From a virus (Duplodnaviria; Heunggongvirae; Uroviricota; Caudoviricetes): a DNA stretch of 6,911 nt. The position numbers and the translations under genes were made by a program. The stretch lies in IMG/VR virus record IMGVR_UViG_3300014519_000020; one strand, given 5' to 3'. The notes below the pieces were generated by a model that saw only the letters and a program-made list of their open reading frames with translations, did not search any database and was not told the origin of the DNA. The first letter of the stretch is position 1. Every line of letters begins with the position of its first letter. This document shows, in pieces, positions 1 to 6,911 of the stretch.

Positions 1-412
1 TTACTGTGACTTTCCCTGCCGCCCCCTTACCAAGCCGGCCCCCCCAGCCACGAAACACATCCACCGTGCCATTCGGAAAACGGATTTTATAGGCCCGGAC
101 ATCGCCGCTTTCAAACCAGCCTATAAGCCCTTTCTGGCCTTCCTCTCCCGGTTTCCAGGCCAGCGTAAAACTGGTATCACCTGCAGATTTCTGTCCCTGC
201 CCGGTCGCGGTCCAGTCCGCGTCTTCATCATCCAGGTAGTTATCATCGTAGGGTTCAGCCGTCATCTCGCCCGGCGTCAGATCCTTCACCTTAGCCAGTC
301 GCTGCCAGCCATCGTCTGACAACGGGTTTGCGTAAGCATCAGCCTTGCCGTTGTAAACCCACAGAGTGGTACCGGCACCTTTTACCGGCTCAAGGGGATT
401 TGGTGTTGCCAT
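1..412 (-). CDS. V: Major tail protein (gpV-like), N-terminal ~137 codons; gene continues past the window's left edge
   Basis: Minus-strand ATG at 412-410 preceded by GAGGA (overlapping the U stop). Translation begins [20 protein letters not shown]...[34 protein letters not shown]...[12 protein letters not shown], which matches my recollection of lambda gpV ([20 protein letters not shown]...). The frame stays open to position 2. Not in the ORF track because it is truncated. Confidence 0.85.
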
Positions 413-419
413 ATCGTCC

Positions 420-815
420 TCACATCTCGTATGTAATGGAATAAGTCAGATCTGCAGAACTCCATAACGCCATATCGTCATCACGACGATACTCATAGCC
501 CTGCGTAACCATCGTGGTAATCAGTCCTGCCAGTGCCGGGATCGCAGTCATCGCCGGGTAAATCCGGCTTTCCATCCACTGATCAAGCTCTGAATCCGGT
601 ACCTGTGCCGGTAAAAACACCTCAATATGCAGCGTGGCCCGCCAGGTATCTGCATCCAGCTCTTCACCGGTATACTCTGCATCCGTCAGATAAACCGCGA
701 TCGCAGGAAAATCCTCTTCGTCAAAAACAACGGGGCGACCATCAAACAGCGTCGCCCCGTGTTCATGCTGCTCGAGTGCATCCAGCACTGCGGCACGAAT
801 GTCAGTGTGTTTCAT
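420..815 (-). CDS. U: Tail terminator protein (gpU-like), 131 aa
   Basis: Track ORF 420..815. Protein [43 protein letters not shown]...[10 protein letters not shown] is near-colinear with lambda gpU (131 aa) as I recall it. Its ATG overlaps the Z stop (ATGA at 812-815). Confidence 0.93.
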
Positions 816-2183: not shown

Positions 2184-3212
2184 TTATTTCACCTGTACCA
2201 CCACAAACTCATCCGGATCCGGCAGCACCATCAGCGGTGCGGACTGCGTCATGGTGAATTCACGGGCCGGATCGCCCACGGTCAGCCAGTGTTTCGGATA
2301 ACGGGAAGAGGCCACCACACCTTCGGACAACGCCTGCGCATCCTGAATGGCACCATAGCAACGAATGCCCTCTGCTGCCGTATTCCCCAGGACCAGTGTG
2401 CCCTCCGGCAGATAACGTTTTTCGGTACCGTCTTCTGCCACATAAGACGTTTTCGCCACCACAATGGCCAGATCGCCGTAATACCCCTTGAAGGACACCA
2501 CCGCCCCCAGGTCTTTCACTGCCGTTTCGAGTTGTGAATTTGAGCCGCGACGGGTATCCAGTTTTTCGCGGAACAGCTTAAAGCCATTCAGCAGACGCCA
2601 GACCGTACCGTCCATAATGGCGATATTCACAAGGCCGCTGGCCTGATCGCAGTAGAGGTCAATATCATGCGTCGGATCAAACGTATCACGGTCCTGCTCA
2701 GACCATTTTTTACCGTCAGCCTGCTCAATGTTATTTCCTTCAGAGCGCCCGAAATCCACCTCGACAGTATCAAACTGATCCCCTTCCATGGTGTATTTGC
2801 CATACAGCACGGCATTCACCGCCTGCATTTCTTCCACCTGGACAATGGCGTGCTCTTCCTGTTTGAGGTTATCGGTAATGATACGCAGACGACGGTAGGC
2901 CGGGTCGTTCAGCTGAGCCGGATCTTCACCAGGAAGGCGCTCAACCGCCTGCTGGTAATTAAATTCGTGTTTGGGCTTGACGTAGCCCGGACGTAACACG
3001 CGGGTTTCACCACCGCGATGGCGAAGCACTTTTCCTTCAACGATCGGGGAGACATAGGCCGCCACCGGCGTTTTTCCGGTAATTTTGTCCAGCATCACCT
3101 CTTCGGTGTGGAAATTCACCGTACGGCGGAAAAACAGCTCCAGAAACAGCGCACGGAATTTAACTTTTTGTTCGGTATAACCGAGTAACTGGCGGGTCGT
3201 AAACAATCCCAT
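2184..3212 (-). CDS. E: Major capsid protein (gpE-like), 342 aa
   Basis: Track ORF 2184..3212. MGLFTTRQLLGYTEQKVKF...PGYVKPKHE...VKAMYAATIESELD... with long colinear similarity to lambda gpE (341 aa), including the C-terminal ...GDPAREFTM.QSAPLM.L.DPDEFV.VQ. RBS AAGGA lies 9 nt upstream of the ATG at 3212. Confidence 0.95.
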   Translation of the reverse strand: MGLFTTRQLLGYTEQKVKFRALFLELFFRRTVNFHTEEVMLDKITGKTPVAAYVSPIVEGKVLRHRGGETRVLRPGYVKPKHEFNYQQAVERLPGEDPAQLNDPAYRRLRIITDNLKQEEHAIVQVEEMQAVNAVLYGKYTMEGDQFDTVEVDFGRSEGNNIEQADGKKWSEQDRDTFDPTHDIDLYCDQASGLVNIAIMDGTVWRLLNGFKLFREKLDTRRGSNSQLETAVKDLGAVVSFKGYYGDLAIVVAKTSYVAEDGTEKRYLPEGTLVLGNTAAEGIRCYGAIQDAQALSEGVVASSRYPKHWLTVGDPAREFTMTQSAPLMVLPDPDEFVVVQVK

Positions 3213-3240
3213 AAATCAGTTCCTTTCATTAAGAAATCAG

Positions 3241-3262
3241 TCAGGCCAACGCGGTGGCCTGA
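3241..3262 (-). promoter_or_regulatory. Perfect 8-bp inverted repeat (stem-loop) in the D-E intergenic spacer
   Basis: Plus strand tcaggcca-acgcgg-tggcctga (3241-3248 / loop 3249-3254 / 3255-3262). It sits between the D stop (3270-3272) and the E RBS. On the mRNA it is followed by CUGAUUUCUU, which is U-rich but not a clean U-tract. Confidence 0.3.
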
Positions 3263-3269
3263 TAACGTG

Positions 3270-3617
3270 TTACGGCAGCGCCGCGTGACTCAGGGCACTG
3301 CCGGTAAAGGCGTTGGCCTTTTTGTGTTCATCCACACTTTCAGGCCAGCGGATTGCCTCCGTCGCAAAGGTCCCCGACTTGTAATAGGTCAGCACCTCCT
3401 CTGTGCCTTCAAGCGGCAGTACCAGTATGCCAACCGCACTACCGGCTTTCTGTCCGTCCCAGACCACCAGTTTCCCGGTGGCCCCATCCAGCATCAGGGG
3501 TGTCAGTGCCGGTGTTGCCGAGGAAATCCCGCTGCTGCCTGTGGCGGTGTGAGCCGGATCATTACCGGCAAAAATACGTACTTCCGCACGCTGTTCAGTG
3601 ATGGTTTTCGTCACCAT
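3270..3617 (-). CDS. D: Capsid decoration protein (gpD-like), 115 aa
   Basis: Track ORF 3270..3617. MVTKTITEQ...NDPAHTAT...TPLMLD...KLVVWDG...AVGIL...YYKSGTF... matches lambda gpD (110 aa) motif for motif (SDPAHTATA, MTPLMLD, FYKSGTF). Confidence 0.93.
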   Translation of the reverse strand: MVTKTITEQRAEVRIFAGNDPAHTATGSSGISSATPALTPLMLDGATGKLVVWDGQKAGSAVGILVLPLEGTEEVLTYYKSGTFATEAIRWPESVDEHKKANAFTGSALSHAALP

Positions 3618-3653
3618 ATTGTTAAAACCTCGTATTGATGTTCAGCACTGACT

Positions 3654-4256
3654 TCATGGCATGGCCATGAGCATTTTCACGTCCGCATCACCGTCTTCTG
3701 ACGCCTGTGACACGCCCCCCTGGACCGCAGCCGGTGAATGGTTCGCCATGAAATGTTCAAACAGGGCGGTTGTGGATGCAGAGACCGGTTCTGCCTTACC
3801 TGATCCCGCAGCCAGCACAGCCCGGGCGCTCTCCACAGTCATTCCCGGGCAGGCAGCCAGCTGTTCAGCCTGCGCCTCAGCCCCTTTTGCCTCATCCAGT
3901 GCCATGATCTGATCACGGAGTGAGGGTCCGGCATTCGCCTGCGGTGAAGCAGCCAGGATCGGGCGGGCTTTTTCCACCGTCATCTCCGGCATCGCCGCCA
4001 GCGTTGCCGCCAGTTGTTCACGACCGTTCGCTTCTTCACACGCCATAATGCGATCGGCTTCACTCTGTGCGGATGCCACCGGCTGCTGCGGTGCCGCCGC
4101 GGCCAGAATCGCCCGGGCCTGTTCAACGCTCATGCCCTGTTGCCCTGCCAGCATCGTGGCAAGCTGTTCACGTCCTTTCGCTTCCTGGCATGTCAGGATC
4201 CCCATCACTCGCTGGTTCTCCTGCACGGCGGCTTCCGTTGCAGTTAATTGCGGCAT
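3654..4256 (-). CDS. nu3: Scaffolding protein (Nu3-like), nested in frame in the 3' part of C, about 200 aa
   Basis: Internal in-frame ATG at 4256-4254 (codon 302 of C; MPQLTATEAAVQENQRVMGIL...) preceded by a strong GAGGAGG RBS 5 nt upstream. It aligns with the start of lambda Nu3 (..GGRMTKETQSTTVS..), and lambda Nu3 is likewise an in-frame internal start sharing the C stop codon, with a very similar length (about 201 codons). Confidence 0.6.
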   Translation of the reverse strand: MPQLTATEAAVQENQRVMGILTCQEAKGREQLATMLAGQQGMSVEQARAILAAAAPQQPVASAQSEADRIMACEEANGREQLAATLAAMPEMTVEKARPILAASPQANAGPSLRDQIMALDEAKGAEAQAEQLAACPGMTVESARAVLAAGSGKAEPVSASTTALFEHFMANHSPAAVQGGVSQASEDGDADVKMLMAMP

Positions 4257-5159
4257 AGTGCCTCCTCTGACATTACTGTTCAGCGCCGTGGCCATCACAC
4301 TGATGGCATCCGACGCATTGATTAATTCATCCGCCAGCCCGGCCTCAATGCCGGACTGACCTTCAAAAACGGCAGCCTCTGTTCCCGTGACCGCATCAAC
4401 AGACAGACCGGTATACATCGCCACTTTTTCGGCAAACATCCGGCGCGCCGCATCAATCCGCTGCTGCATGTCCTGGCGAACCTCTGCCGGCAACGCTTCA
4501 AACTGATTGCCATCCACCTTGTGCGCTCCTGAGTAAATCAGCGTGATATCCACACCGGCCTGCGCCAGATGACCGGCATAGCTGACATGGCTCATCATCA
4601 CGCCAATGGAGCCGATACGGGATGTCTGGGTAACCAGCCGTCGGGAGCAGGCCGACGCCAGCAGCATGGCTGCAGAACAGGCCGTGTCATTGCACAGTGC
4701 CCAGACCGGCTTCTGCTGACGGAGGCGGTAAATCATGTCAGCACAGTCAAACGCACCGGCGGCCTGCCCGCCCGGACTGTCAATGTCCAGCAGTACACCC
4801 CGCACCTGGCTATCTGCCATTGCCTGCTGAAGACAGGCGACAATGCCGTCATAGCCTGTTATTCCGGAAAATGGCCGCATACCCCCCAGCCGGTGCACCA
4901 GCGTGCCGGTCACCGGCAGTACCGCAATACCGTTCACCACCCGGTAAACACGGGCCGGTCGTTTACCTCCGGCCATGTACTCGTCCGTTTCAGCCAGCAT
5001 TCCGGGTGCATCAAGCTGTACCTGCTGTTGTGGTACCGAAAGACTTGCTGCCCCCATCTCGCGCCCGAGCGCGCAAAAGAAAACCCGCGCACAGGCGGGC
5101 TCCAGAAGCAGCGGTTCATTGAATGCTGCTGCAATAATGTGTGAAAGATTACGTCTCAC
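3654..5159 (-). CDS. C: Prohead protease (gpC-like; S49/SppA-ClpP-type head maturation protease), 501 aa, with C-terminal scaffold (Nu3) domain
   Basis: Track ORF 3654..5159. The start codon is GTG at 5159-5157, overlapping the portal stop. N-terminal ...IAAAFNEPLLLEPACARVFFCAL..., ...GIAVLPVTGTLV..., ...KPVWALCNDTACSAA.LLASACSRRLVTQTSRIGSIGVMM.H..., ...ITLIYSGAHKVDGN... are colinear with lambda gpC (439 aa). It is about 60 aa longer than lambda gpC, which the repeat expansion in the C-terminal part accounts for. Confidence 0.9.
   Translation of the reverse strand: MRRNLSHIIAAAFNEPLLLEPACARVFFCALGREMGAASLSVPQQQVQLDAPGMLAETDEYMAGGKRPARVYRVVNGIAVLPVTGTLVHRLGGMRPFSGITGYDGIVACLQQAMADSQVRGVLLDIDSPGGQAAGAFDCADMIYRLRQQKPVWALCNDTACSAAMLLASACSRRLVTQTSRIGSIGVMMSHVSYAGHLAQAGVDITLIYSGAHKVDGNQFEALPAEVRQDMQQRIDAARRMFAEKVAMYTGLSVDAVTGTEAAVFEGQSGIEAGLADELINASDAISVMATALNSNVRGGTMPQLTATEAAVQENQRVMGILTCQEAKGREQLATMLAGQQGMSVEQARAILAAAAPQQPVASAQSEADRIMACEEANGREQLAATLAAMPEMTVEKARPILAASPQANAGPSLRDQIMALDEAKGAEAQAEQLAACPGMTVESARAVLAAGSGKAEPVSASTTALFEHFMANHSPAAVQGGVSQASEDGDADVKMLMAMP
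3811..4222 (-). repeat. Three tandem imperfect direct repeats (about 140-150 bp each) inside the C/Nu3 coding region
   Basis: DNA units starting near 3811, 3952 and 4103 share the pattern gccagNaNNgcccgggc...tcat.cc...gccagctgttcacg.cc.ttcgcttc.... They encode three copies of a roughly 45-50 aa motif: R.MGILTCQEAKGREQLATMLAGQQGMSVEQARAILAAA / ADRIMACEEANGREQLAATLAAMPEMTVEKARPILAAS / RDQIMALDEAKGAEAQAEQLAACPGMTVESARAVLAAG. Confidence 0.75.
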
Positions 5160-6648
5160 GTGGTGTTGTCTCCTCTTCCGGCCTGCGACTCTCCGCTATC
5201 TGCTGCTGATACGCCTGCGCTATCCACACCGGACGTGAGAGTCCGGCTTTTTCCCGCTCTGCAGATTCCCTGACCTGCTGGCGGAAAATGTCCTGATAAT
5301 CCTCGCCCATCAGCGCCAGCTCTTTCTCATACGTGCTCAGTCCGGCCTCAATGCGCATCACTGATTCCTGAACCTCCTTGAGCCCGTCAATGGCCATTCT
5401 TCCGGCTCCAATCCACTCAGCCCGTGACCAGGCTGATCGCGCCTGATAAAAATCAAAACGCGCCCGTGGCGGACGAATAATCCCCCGAAGAAGTGCCTCT
5501 TCCAGCCAGCAGGAAAACATCTGCGTGGCCAGCCGGGACGCAATAAATTTTCGCCGCCCCATAAAATAGCGCCACGACTCATTGGCGGATGCGCGGGCAC
5601 TTGAATAACTGACCTTCGAGTAATCACGGGACAACTGTTCGTAGGAAACGCCAAGACCGGCGGCGATATACCGCAGCAGCGCCTGTTCAAGCGCCGAAAA
5701 TCCATTGTCTGAATCCTGCGCGGTCTGAAGTTTCAGATCATCACCGGGGAAAAGGTGCGGAATTTTGACACCGCCCAGCGTCACGCTATTCGTGTCATAC
5801 CAGGTGGAGAACTTCTCCAGAATATTAATAAGCGGATTATCCTTCTGCCCCTGCGGCGCACCGGCGATATATTCAAAGGCCTTTTCGGTATCAAGTTCAC
5901 TTTCAATCGTCGCTGCATACATCGCCTTCACTATGGCCGACTGAAGCTGTGTTGCCTGCAGGGAATCGAGCATCTTCAGCCGTTCCATTACGCTGTAAAA
6001 CTGATTGGCCCCACGGGTCTGCCCGTCCTCCACCGGCTCGAAAATATGCAGCATAGCCGGACGCCCGGTGGGAAGTTCACGCGGGATCCGTTCCCATCGT
6101 CCACTCCCGGAGCGAGGAAAATCATCCTCACAGATATGGTACGCAACGGCACGACCATATCGATCAACCTCCACACCGGCCCGCAGAAAACGGTTCCCGA
6201 TACCGTGTCCTGGCGTGTCCACCCGTTTCGGACTCACGGCTTTAAAACGCGTACGAAACAGTTGCGTGCTCTCCGTATCCCAGACCGGCTGCACAAAGAT
6301 TTCGCCGTTAAACGCATGAACGCCCACACCTTCACGGATAAATTCCGTGAACGTGCGTTTCCCTTCCACGTCGATCTCGCCAAACATCCCTTCGGCGTAT
6401 TCCGACCAGGCCGCCTCCACCTCATCGACAAAACTTTTTGCCGCAGTCTCCCGCATCCCCAGCCAGCGCCAGTTCGGACGGTAGCTGATCAGAAACATAT
6501 GCCCGACAATATGATCCTTATGCAGGGCCACCGCATTAGCCGCTATCCCGTTATTGCGCACCAGATCATCTGCCCGGGCATTCCCCAGACGCAACGCAGG
6601 CAGCAGGGCTGCATCGGCACTCTGCGCCGGTGGCAACCACTCCGCCAT
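5149..6648 (-). CDS. B: Portal protein (gpB-like), 499 aa as an intact ORF; the ancestral N-terminus is separated by an in-frame TAG
   Basis: Track ORF 5149..6648. Extensive colinear similarity to lambda gpB: ADAALLP...RGNARADDLVRNNG, ...FEPVEDGQTRGAN.FYSVME..K.LD.LQ.TQLQSAIVKAMYAATIESELD, ...LLRYIAAGLGVSYEQLSR.Y...SYS.ARASANESW.YFMGRRKF.ASR, ...WIG.GRMAIDGLKEVQE.VM.IEAGLSTYEKE. The first ATG (6648) falls about 30 codons inside the region homologous to lambda gpB. Confidence 0.9.
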   Translation of the reverse strand: MAEWLPPAQSADAALLPALRLGNARADDLVRNNGIAANAVALHKDHIVGHMFLISYRPNWRWLGMRETAAKSFVDEVEAAWSEYAEGMFGEIDVEGKRTFTEFIREGVGVHAFNGEIFVQPVWDTESTQLFRTRFKAVSPKRVDTPGHGIGNRFLRAGVEVDRYGRAVAYHICEDDFPRSGSGRWERIPRELPTGRPAMLHIFEPVEDGQTRGANQFYSVMERLKMLDSLQATQLQSAIVKAMYAATIESELDTEKAFEYIAGAPQGQKDNPLINILEKFSTWYDTNSVTLGGVKIPHLFPGDDLKLQTAQDSDNGFSALEQALLRYIAAGLGVSYEQLSRDYSKVSYSSARASANESWRYFMGRRKFIASRLATQMFSCWLEEALLRGIIRPPRARFDFYQARSAWSRAEWIGAGRMAIDGLKEVQESVMRIEAGLSTYEKELALMGEDYQDIFRQQVRESAEREKAGLSRPVWIAQAYQQQIAESRRPEEETTPRET

Positions 6649-6669
6649 TTGCCCGCCAAATCCTGCGCC

Positions 6670-6741
6670 CTACGTCAGGCAGCTGAGACTCTCACGAAGC
6701 GGAACGCCGTTCACATCAATCAGGACAGGCGTTCGTTTCAT
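6670..6741 (-). pseudogene. B: Ancestral 5' end of the portal gene: ATG at 6741 plus 22 codons, ended by an in-frame TAG (6672-6670)
   Basis: Minus-strand translation from the ATG at 6741 gives MKRTPVLIDVNGVPLRESLSCLT*, then GAGFGGQ-MAEW..., all in the same frame as the 5149..6648 ORF. Lambda gpB begins MKTPTIPTLLGPDGMTSLREYAGYHGGGSGFGGQLRSW, so the alignment is gap-free across the stop, which sits where lambda has Gly. The ATG at 6741 overlaps the W stop (ATGA), as the lambda W/B junction does. Confidence 0.6.
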
Positions 6742-6911
6742 AACCTCACTCCCAGCGGACGACGGCGACGTCGGGTTGTCCCCAGTACCGACTCCGCATC
6801 ATTGATCGCCCGGTTAAGCTCATCCAGAGAAGCCGCCGTATATTCAATTCTGCGACCATCTTTCTGGACAGACACCACCCGTTTACCGGTTAATAAATCA
6901 AGGCGCGCCTG
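6738..6911 (-). CDS. W: Head-tail connector/head completion protein (gpW-like), C-terminal 57 codons; start lies beyond the window's right edge
   Basis: Minus-strand frame ending at TGA (6740-6738) translates to ...QARLDLLTGKRVVSVQKDGRRIEYTAASLDELNRAINDAESVLGTTRRRRRPLGVRL*, matching lambda gpW (..[48 protein letters not shown]) as I recall it. Not in the ORF track because it is truncated. Confidence 0.85.
   Translation of the reverse strand, partial: QARLDLLTGKRVVSVQKDGRRIEYTAASLDELNRAINDAESVLGTTRRRRRPLGVRL

What the first reader, a model, noticed from the sequence alone, without database searches (positions are those of the whole stretch)
6648..6741. In-frame amber codon separates the portal gene from its ancestral, W-coupled start
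The portal homology runs without a frame change from the ATG at 6741 (which overlaps the W stop as ATGA, the same arrangement as in lambda) through to the body of the gene. A TAG at 6672-6670 interrupts it after 22 codons, at a position where lambda has glycine. The next ATG is only 22 nt further on (6648). Three readings are possible: (a) a nonsense mutation in a decaying prophage; (b) a sequencing or assembly error; (c) a still-functional gene expressed by termination-reinitiation or amber suppression. Reading (c) is not far-fetched: lambda gpB is known to lose about 20 N-terminal residues by proteolysis during head maturation (gpB to gpB*), so an N-terminally shortened portal could plausibly still assemble.
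Basis: partly seen in the sequence, partly recalled or inferred. Interest (0 to 1): 0.6.

Follow-up and report, generated by a model that had tools for sequence, protein, structure and literature searches.

The report
Private 11-base lesion truncating a prophage portal gene
A phage-21/lambda-type prophage head gene cluster carries a stop codon near the start of its portal gene, but the stop sits in a one-off 11-base scrambled patch seen in no other genome, so it is an ordinary private lesion or a sequence error, not a regulated feature.

Summary
On the minus strand the gpW-like gene ends in TGA at 6740-6738, overlapping ATG 6741 as ATGA. The lambda-family portal frame is open from 6741 to 5149 except for TAG at 6672-6670, which is codon 24 (23 sense codons precede it, not 22). 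The next ATG is at 6648, codon 32.

The TAG is not a point mutation. It lies in an 11-nt block (6680-6670, GCCTGACGTAG) that replaces ACAACGGGGGC. Nine of 11 bases differ, the length is unchanged, and YNGG becomes CLT*. The flanks are identical to relatives.

No complete E. coli genome, phage, plasmid, viral, metagenome or species-representative contig carries the block or an intermediate form. I found no donor sequence. All eight other genes in the window are intact.

Nothing supports a programmed or adapted mechanism. The stop is not conserved. The 21 nt between TAG and ATG 6648 are unchanged from intact relatives. The Shine-Dalgarno match is at background level. Published E. coli data show that gaps of about 20 nt nearly abolish termination-reinitiation. 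A product starting at Met32 would also lack 12 residues of the mature portal, not just the 22-residue leader.

Most likely this is a private inactivating complex substitution. A sequence artefact is the main rival. Interest is low.

The parts
6738..6911 (-). 3' part of the gpW-like head-tail joining (adaptor) gene; it runs off the window and stops at TGA 6740-6738.
   Evidence: translation; Pfam gpW E 9e-20; identical to WP_000259002-type genes in relatives.
6738..6741 (-). ATGA overlap of the W stop and the ancestral portal start. A strong Shine-Dalgarno sequence (GGGAGTGAGG) lies just upstream.
   Evidence: The same 4-nt overlap is annotated in lambda, phage 21 and E. coli relatives. Anti-SD duplex -9.0 kcal/mol.
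5149..6741 (-). Ancestral lambda-family portal reading frame (531 codons including its stop), interrupted once.
   Evidence: Pfam PF05136 over residues 29-397, E 2.9e-100; lambda portal 8k38 E 1.6e-214; same length as the intact 1593-nt gene of relatives.
6670..6741 (-). Residual 23-codon N-terminal ORF plus TAG (MKRTPVLIDVNGVPLRESLSCLT*).
6670..6680 (-). Private 11-nt replacement block. GCCTGACGTAG stands in place of ACAACGGGGGC: 9 of 11 bases changed, no length change, residues 21-24 YNGG -> CLT*.
   Evidence: alignments. Absent from all collections searched. Positive control with the intact 41-mer gave 951 places.
6670..6672 (-). In-frame amber codon (codon 24), aligned with lambda gpB Gly27 and phage 21 Gly24.
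6649..6669 (-). 21-nt spacer between the TAG and the next ATG, identical to intact relatives. It contains AGGA 12 nt upstream of the ATG.
5149..6648 (-). Longest remaining ORF: 499 aa from Met32 (MAEWLPP...). It keeps the family-conserved portal core but lacks the leader and the first 12 residues of the mature protein.
   Evidence: The Pfam domain starts at residue 29. Distant lambda-family portals align from residue 31 on. Lambda leader/mature annotation. This exact product is not on record anywhere.

Best explanation
The amber codon is a by-product of a single, private, complex mutation. An 11-bp patch at the very start of the mature portal sequence was replaced by unrelated sequence of the same length, in an otherwise intact phage-21-type head gene module. 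As written, ribosomes that start at the W-coupled ATG 6741 terminate after 23 codons. The portal body can then be made only by inefficient internal initiation at ATG 6648. That would give a protein lacking the 20-22-residue leader and the first 12 residues of the mature wing domain. The prophage copy is therefore most likely a portal-null or severe hypomorph: a recent pseudogene that could make particles only with help from, or recombination with, a co-resident lambdoid prophage. Shown here: the block, its privacy, the intact neighbours, the weak reinitiation context. Inferred: that the change is biological and not an artefact, and that the Met32 product is non-functional.
For: The block has 9 of 11 bases changed inside a 301-nt stretch that is otherwise identical to E. 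coli relatives. All 7 closest relatives carry ACAACGGGGGC. The W/portal junction occurs at 2974 places in 1860 complete E. coli genomes. A 41-mer centred on the block finds nothing in E. coli genomes, phages or plasmids, while the intact 41-mer finds 951 places. A word-11 blastn search with 30 nt finds no partial or intermediate allele. The exact 24-mer is absent from genome, viral and metagenome contigs. About 29% of random 11-mers at this spot create an in-frame stop, so the stop needs no special explanation. W, C, D, E, FI, FII, Z and U all have the same length as in intact prophages. Codon differences to the best relative outside the block are 27 synonymous against 10 non-synonymous, so the module was under purifying selection until recently. 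No adaptation to the stop is visible. The sequence downstream of the block, including the 21-nt TAG-to-ATG spacer, is identical to the closest E. coli relatives across the aligned stretch. The SD duplex for ATG 6648 is -5.3 kcal/mol, matched or beaten by 25% of all ATGs on that strand, against -9.0 for the native start. There is no promoter-like site and no tRNA in the window. Intergenic distances of about 20 nt almost abolish termination-reinitiation in E. coli (PMC10666635). The lambda leader peptide is residues 1-22 and the virion portal is modelled from residue 24 (PMC10721106). Met32 equals lambda Leu35.
Against: A same-length replacement of 11 bp by unrelated sequence is not a common spontaneous mutation in E. 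coli, and I found no donor or template for it. Nothing distinguishes a real mutation from an error in the deposited sequence without reads. The conserved core of the portal family begins at residues 29-31, so a Met32 product could in principle fold. Portal is needed at only 12 copies per virion (PMC10721106), so low expression might be enough. Only 6.9 kb of the prophage is visible, so its overall state is unknown.
Confidence: 0.5

Rival explanations
1. Sequence artefact: the real genome has the intact portal, and the 11-nt patch arose during sequencing, assembly, polishing or later handling of the record.
For: The patch is unique in every collection searched. It resembles the replaced sequence no more than random sequence would (2 of 11 matches). 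It has no detectable donor. It replaces a G5/GC-rich run, and another assembly (E. coli 99-3311) has a 1-nt deletion at that run in a prophage annotated with many frameshifts. Everything else in the window is intact.
Against: Typical platform errors are single-base miscalls or homopolymer indels, not a length-neutral replacement of 9 of 11 bases. The rest of the window shows no frameshift or stop in 6.9 kb, which argues for a high-quality consensus. The window's other private differences are scattered single bases.
Confidence: 0.3
2. The gene is still functional: ribosomes initiate at ATG 6648, by termination-reinitiation after the TAG or de novo, and the N-terminally shortened portal assembles.
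For: ATG 6648 is the first start after the stop, only 21 nt away, with AGGA 12 nt upstream. The Pfam portal domain starts at residue 29, and distant family members align only from residue 31. The leader is removed in lambda anyway. Only 12 portal copies are needed per virion. The neighbouring genes are all intact.
Against: The stop is private, so nothing shows it has been maintained. The product would lack 12 residues of the mature protein that are ordered in the lambda virion (model starts at residue 24), including the G-GFGGQ motif invariant in lambda and phage 21. A gap of about 20 nt nearly abolishes reinitiation in E. coli (PMC10666635). The SD match is at background level. No compensatory change is present. 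The uncleaved leader may be needed for early assembly steps (inference).
Confidence: 0.1
3. Read-through of the TAG by a host or phage amber suppressor tRNA gives a full-length portal with residues 21-24 altered (C-L-T-X).
For: The frame is continuous across the TAG.
Against: There is no tRNA in the window. Suppressors are uncommon in natural isolates (general knowledge). Even with read-through, four residues next to the maturation cleavage site are changed, two of them at glycines that lambda, phage 21 and all sampled E. coli relatives share. The stop is not conserved.
Confidence: 0.03
4. Deliberate engineering: a designed knock-out patch that introduces a stop and a diagnostic site.
For: It is a multi-base, length-neutral replacement. 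It creates a PvuII site (CAGCTG), plus TGA and TAG in two of the three frames (read directly).
Against: Only two frames are closed. The PvuII site needs only one of the changed bases (1 in 4 by chance). A designed patch would not usually sit in an otherwise wild-type-like prophage that carries its own private SNPs. Nothing else points to engineering.
Confidence: 0.04

Closest known systems
Phage 21 / lambda head module (W-B-C-D-E-FI-FII-Z-U-V), portal gpB (Pfam PF05136)
   Same: Same gene order and the same ATGA W/B overlap. Over the 301-nt W/portal junction it is 95% identical in DNA to phage 21. The whole window is 99.3% identical to E. coli prophages. The portal N-terminus is about 60% identical to lambda gpB.
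   Different: The portal frame carries a private 11-nt replacement with an amber at codon 24. All sampled relatives are open there.
Nonsense- or frameshift-inactivated genes in defective lambdoid prophages
   Same: A single lesion in an essential morphogenetic gene that is private to one genome. An example in the same gene is the E. coli 99-3311 copy, annotated as frameshifted.
   Different: The lesion is a 9-of-11-base block substitution, not a point change or indel. The neighbouring genes show no decay.
Lambda gpB -> gpB* N-terminal maturation cleavage
   Same: The N-terminal about 22 residues are not part of the mature portal. The lesion lies at residues 2-5 after the aligned cleavage point.
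   Different: Internal initiation at Met32 would remove 31 residues. That is 12 more than the maturation cleavage, taken from a segment that is ordered in the virion.
Termination-reinitiation (translational coupling) in bacteria
   Same: A stop followed by a nearby in-frame AUG on a translated mRNA.
   Different: Coupled pairs overlap or lie within a few nt. Here the gap is 21 nt, where coupling was almost abolished in the E. coli test pairs (PMC10666635).

Membership tests
Lambda-family phage portal protein (PF05136) | Significant match to the family profile over the full domain. | tested here: met
   E 2.9e-100, 336 bits against a cut-off of 32.9, profile positions 2-354 of 354, residues 29-397. 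Lambda portal 8k38 E 1.6e-214.
Lambda-family phage portal protein (PF05136) | Uninterrupted reading frame from the W-coupled start, as in functional members. | tested here: not met
   TAG at codon 24. Relatives are open over 530 codons.
Programmed stop-codon read-through or other recoding | The stop codon is conserved at the same position in related genes. | tested here: not met
   No genome, phage, plasmid or contig collection holds the TAG block. All sampled relatives have GGC or GGG, coding Gly.
Programmed stop-codon read-through or other recoding | A suppressor tRNA or a stimulatory downstream element. | tested here: inconclusive
   No tRNA in the 6.9-kb window. The downstream sequence is identical to non-recoded relatives. 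The host genome is not available.
Termination-reinitiation coupling | Stop and restart codons overlap or lie within a few nucleotides. | tested here: not met
   21 nt lie between TAG 6670 and ATG 6648. Gaps of about 20 nt nearly abolish coupling in E. coli (PMC10666635).
Independent internal translation start | A Shine-Dalgarno match at suitable spacing that is stronger than background. | tested here: not met
   -5.3 kcal/mol, and 25% of all 158 ATGs on the gene strand do as well or better. The native start gives -9.0.
Prophage pseudogene (private inactivating lesion) | The lesion is absent from close relatives that keep an intact gene. | tested here: met
Prophage pseudogene (private inactivating lesion) | Loss of function of the product. 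| not testable with these tools
   Needs induction, complementation or protein analysis.
Decaying (cryptic) prophage | Several inactivating lesions in neighbouring genes. | tested here: not met
   W (partial), C, D, E, FI, FII, Z and U are full length without stops. Codon differences are 27 synonymous against 10 non-synonymous. Only 6.9 kb could be examined.

The most novel reading that the evidence does not exclude
The prophage still makes infectious particles using a portal translated from ATG 6648. That would show that the entire leader and the first 12 residues of the mature lambda-family portal, including the GFGGQ motif, are dispensable for prohead nucleation, and that low-level internal initiation supplies enough portal.
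Probability: 0.07. Interest if true: 0.4.

Novelty: already known. Interest (0 to 1): 0.12.

Why it matters
It matters little beyond annotation. The locus should be annotated as a portal pseudogene (internal stop) or flagged for re-sequencing, not as a 499-aa portal or a recoding candidate. The only mildly unusual aspect is the mutation itself, a length-neutral replacement of 11 bp by unrelated sequence with no detectable template. If reads confirm it, it is one example of a complex multi-nucleotide substitution in E. coli-type DNA. If the truncated portal proved functional, it would define the dispensable N-terminal region of lambda-family portals, but nothing here points that way.

Tried and rejected
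1. Point nonsense mutation: rejected, because 9 of 11 adjacent bases differ.

2. Short-patch recombination from another portal allele: the word-11 blastn of a 30-mer with E<=10 found nothing in 5426 complete E. coli genomes. By my estimate that search would report alleles matching at least about 26 of the 30 bases, so no partial or intermediate allele is present. Lambda and phage 21 have unrelated sequence at this site.

3. Template switching or a quasi-palindrome: no copy of the block on either strand of the window beyond chance (3 matches at <=2 mismatches, against 1.5 expected). The best local alignment score was 10, against a null mean of 9.5.

4. Ectopic donor elsewhere in bacteria: the 19-mer with 4-nt flanks hit only two unrelated MAG contigs, roughly what chance predicts by my own calculation (about 4).

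5. Simple inversion, complement or shuffle of the original 11-mer: excluded by inspection, since the base composition differs.

6. New promoter created by the block: none found.

7. Finding the source genome or a sister carrying the truncated ORF: the exact 499-aa product is not on record. The best whole-window match is 99.3%.

8. Literature on whether N-terminally truncated gpB is functional: nothing found in the searchable library. I did not use structure prediction, because solved lambda portal structures exist and would not settle function.

Full report
**Observation**

All genes in the window lie on the minus strand. The 3' part of a gpW-like adaptor gene (Pfam gpW, E 9e-20) ends ...GAGGTTATGA, with its TGA at 6740-6738. 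The ATG at 6741 overlaps that stop as ATGA. Lambda (W 2633-2839, B 2836-4437), phage 21 and E. coli prophages are annotated with the same overlap.

Translating 6741->5149 gives 531 codons with one internal stop, TAG at 6672-6670. The frame is a lambda-family portal: PF05136 at E 2.9e-100, and the solved lambda portal 8k38 at E 1.6e-214. The TAG is codon 24, so 23 sense codons precede it, not 22. It aligns with Gly27 of lambda gpB and Gly24 of phage 21. The next in-frame ATG is 6648 (codon 32), 21 nt after the stop, and it heads a 499-aa ORF.

**What the stop really is**

I aligned the W/portal junction with the closest E. coli prophages and with phage 21. Over 301 nt the window is identical to its E. 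coli relatives except for one patch. At 6680-6670 the window reads GCCTGACGTAG where all relatives read ACAACGGGGGC. Nine of 11 bases differ, the length is unchanged, and residues 21-24 change from YNGG to CLT*. This is a block replacement, not a single-base nonsense mutation. The two matching bases are no more than chance would give.

About 29% of random 11-mers placed here would create an in-frame stop. The amber codon therefore needs no explanation beyond the block itself.

**Is the block shared?**

The junction region is common, with 2974 places in 1860 of 5426 complete E. coli genomes. The block itself is found nowhere:

- A 41-mer centred on the block found nothing in E. coli genomes, phages or plasmids.
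- The corresponding intact 41-mer, used as a positive control, found 951 places in 746 genomes.
- A 30-mer blastn search with 11-base words and E<=10 also found nothing. I estimate it would have reported alleles sharing more than about half of the changed bases.
- The exact 24-mer is absent from the species-representative genome contigs, the viral contigs and the metagenome contigs.
- The 499-aa product is not on record.

The block is private as far as these collections can show. The source genome itself is evidently not in the collections. The best whole-window identity is 99.3%, and a few scattered single-base differences are also unmatched.

**Origin of the block**

I found no template. There is no more than a chance match to the block on either strand of the window. 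There is no donor in E. coli genomes. A 19-mer with 4-nt flanks hit only two unrelated MAG contigs across the species-representative genome contigs, close to the roughly four hits I calculate for chance. The block is not an inversion, complement or shuffle of the original sequence.

It replaces a G5/GC-rich run. One other assembly, E. coli 99-3311, has a 1-nt deletion at that run, in a prophage annotated with many frameshifts. The mechanism, or the artefact, that produced the block remains unexplained.

**State of the surroundings**

W (partial), the S49 protease C, D, E, FI, FII, Z and U all have exactly the lengths of their intact counterparts and no internal stops. Codon differences from the best relative outside the block are 27 synonymous against 10 non-synonymous. 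The visible 6.9 kb is therefore not a decaying prophage. The lesion is recent, or it is not real.

**Could the gene still work?**

In favour:

- The family-conserved core begins at about residue 29-31. The Pfam domain starts at residue 29, and chi-like, Rhodobacter, Xanthomonas and other lambda-family portals align from residue 31 on.
- The N-terminal leader is removed in lambda in any case (PMC3224144; the lambda record annotates residues 1-22 as a leader peptide).
- Only 12 portal copies are needed per virion (PMC10721106).

Against:

- The lambda virion portal is modelled from residue 24 (PMC10721106). Met32 here corresponds to lambda Leu35. The Met32 product would therefore lack 12 residues of the mature protein, including the G-GFGGQ motif invariant among lambda, phage 21 and this copy.
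- The 21 nt between stop and ATG are identical to intact relatives, so there is no sign of adaptation.
- The anti-Shine-Dalgarno duplex before ATG 6648 is -5.3 kcal/mol. A quarter of all ATGs on this strand equal or beat that value, and the native start gives -9.0.
- No promoter-like site is created.
- No suppressor tRNA lies in the window. Read-through would still leave residues 21-24, next to the maturation site, altered.

**Verdict**

The finding is a real feature of the sequence as given, but it is a one-off 11-bp lesion and not a conserved or adapted translational arrangement.

| Reading | Probability |
|---|---|
| Genuine private complex substitution that makes this copy a portal-null or severe hypomorph | about 0.5 |
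| Sequence artefact | about 0.3 |
| Functional gene via internal initiation | about 0.1 |
| Amber suppression | about 0.03 |
| Deliberate engineering | about 0.04 |

A portal-null copy could be rescued only by a co-resident lambdoid prophage; genomes with this junction region carry a median of two matching places. Compared with what is known, this is an ordinary disrupted prophage gene of the phage 21/lambda head module. Its only unusual aspect is the form of the mutation. Interest is low.

Noticed in passing
window 1-42 (minus strand, inside the V-like major tail gene that starts at ATG 412): Window 43-420 is 100% identical to many E. coli prophages. The last 42 nt switch abruptly to a diverged V allele, about 57% identical (...[17 protein letters not shown] against ...RGWVSSIGKAVTAKEVIT). 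This looks like a mosaic recombination junction at about position 43. A 35-mer from it was not found in the viral contigs.
   Followed up: partly
window 4692-5092 (S49 protease / C gene): A cluster of 13 substitutions relative to the seven closest prophages, almost all synonymous. The best match (99.3%) is to a second, different prophage copy in some genomes, e.g. AR_0013 at 3.66 Mb. This is a short mosaic patch from another allele, and still has 3 unmatched bases.
   Followed up: partly
L001 (E. coli 99-3311, NZ_CP101310.1 1960571-1966870): The nearest hit to the junction carries a 1-nt deletion in the G5 run that the window's block replaces. Its terminase, portal, protease and decoration genes are all annotated as frameshifted or with an internal stop. 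This looks like homopolymer sequencing error in that assembly, and marks the G-run as error-prone.
   Followed up: no
window 5149-5159: The portal stop (5151-5149) and the GTG start of the protease gene C (5159) overlap by 11 nt, as in the annotated relatives. FI is listed by the ORF tool from GTG 2180 (143 aa), but relatives annotate the ATG at 2132 (127 aa), which has a strong Shine-Dalgarno sequence (-10.3 kcal/mol).
   Followed up: partly
window 6199 and 6166 (portal): Two single-base differences not seen in any complete E. coli genome searched. One of them (6199) is non-synonymous, M181I. They show that the source lineage is not represented in the collection, so 'private' applies to more than the 11-nt block.
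   Followed up: partly
window 6676-6685 (minus strand): The block creates a PvuII site (CAGCTG) and puts TGA and TAG in two of the three frames (TGACGTAG). This is probably coincidence, but it is the only hint of a designed knock-out patch.
   Followed up: no
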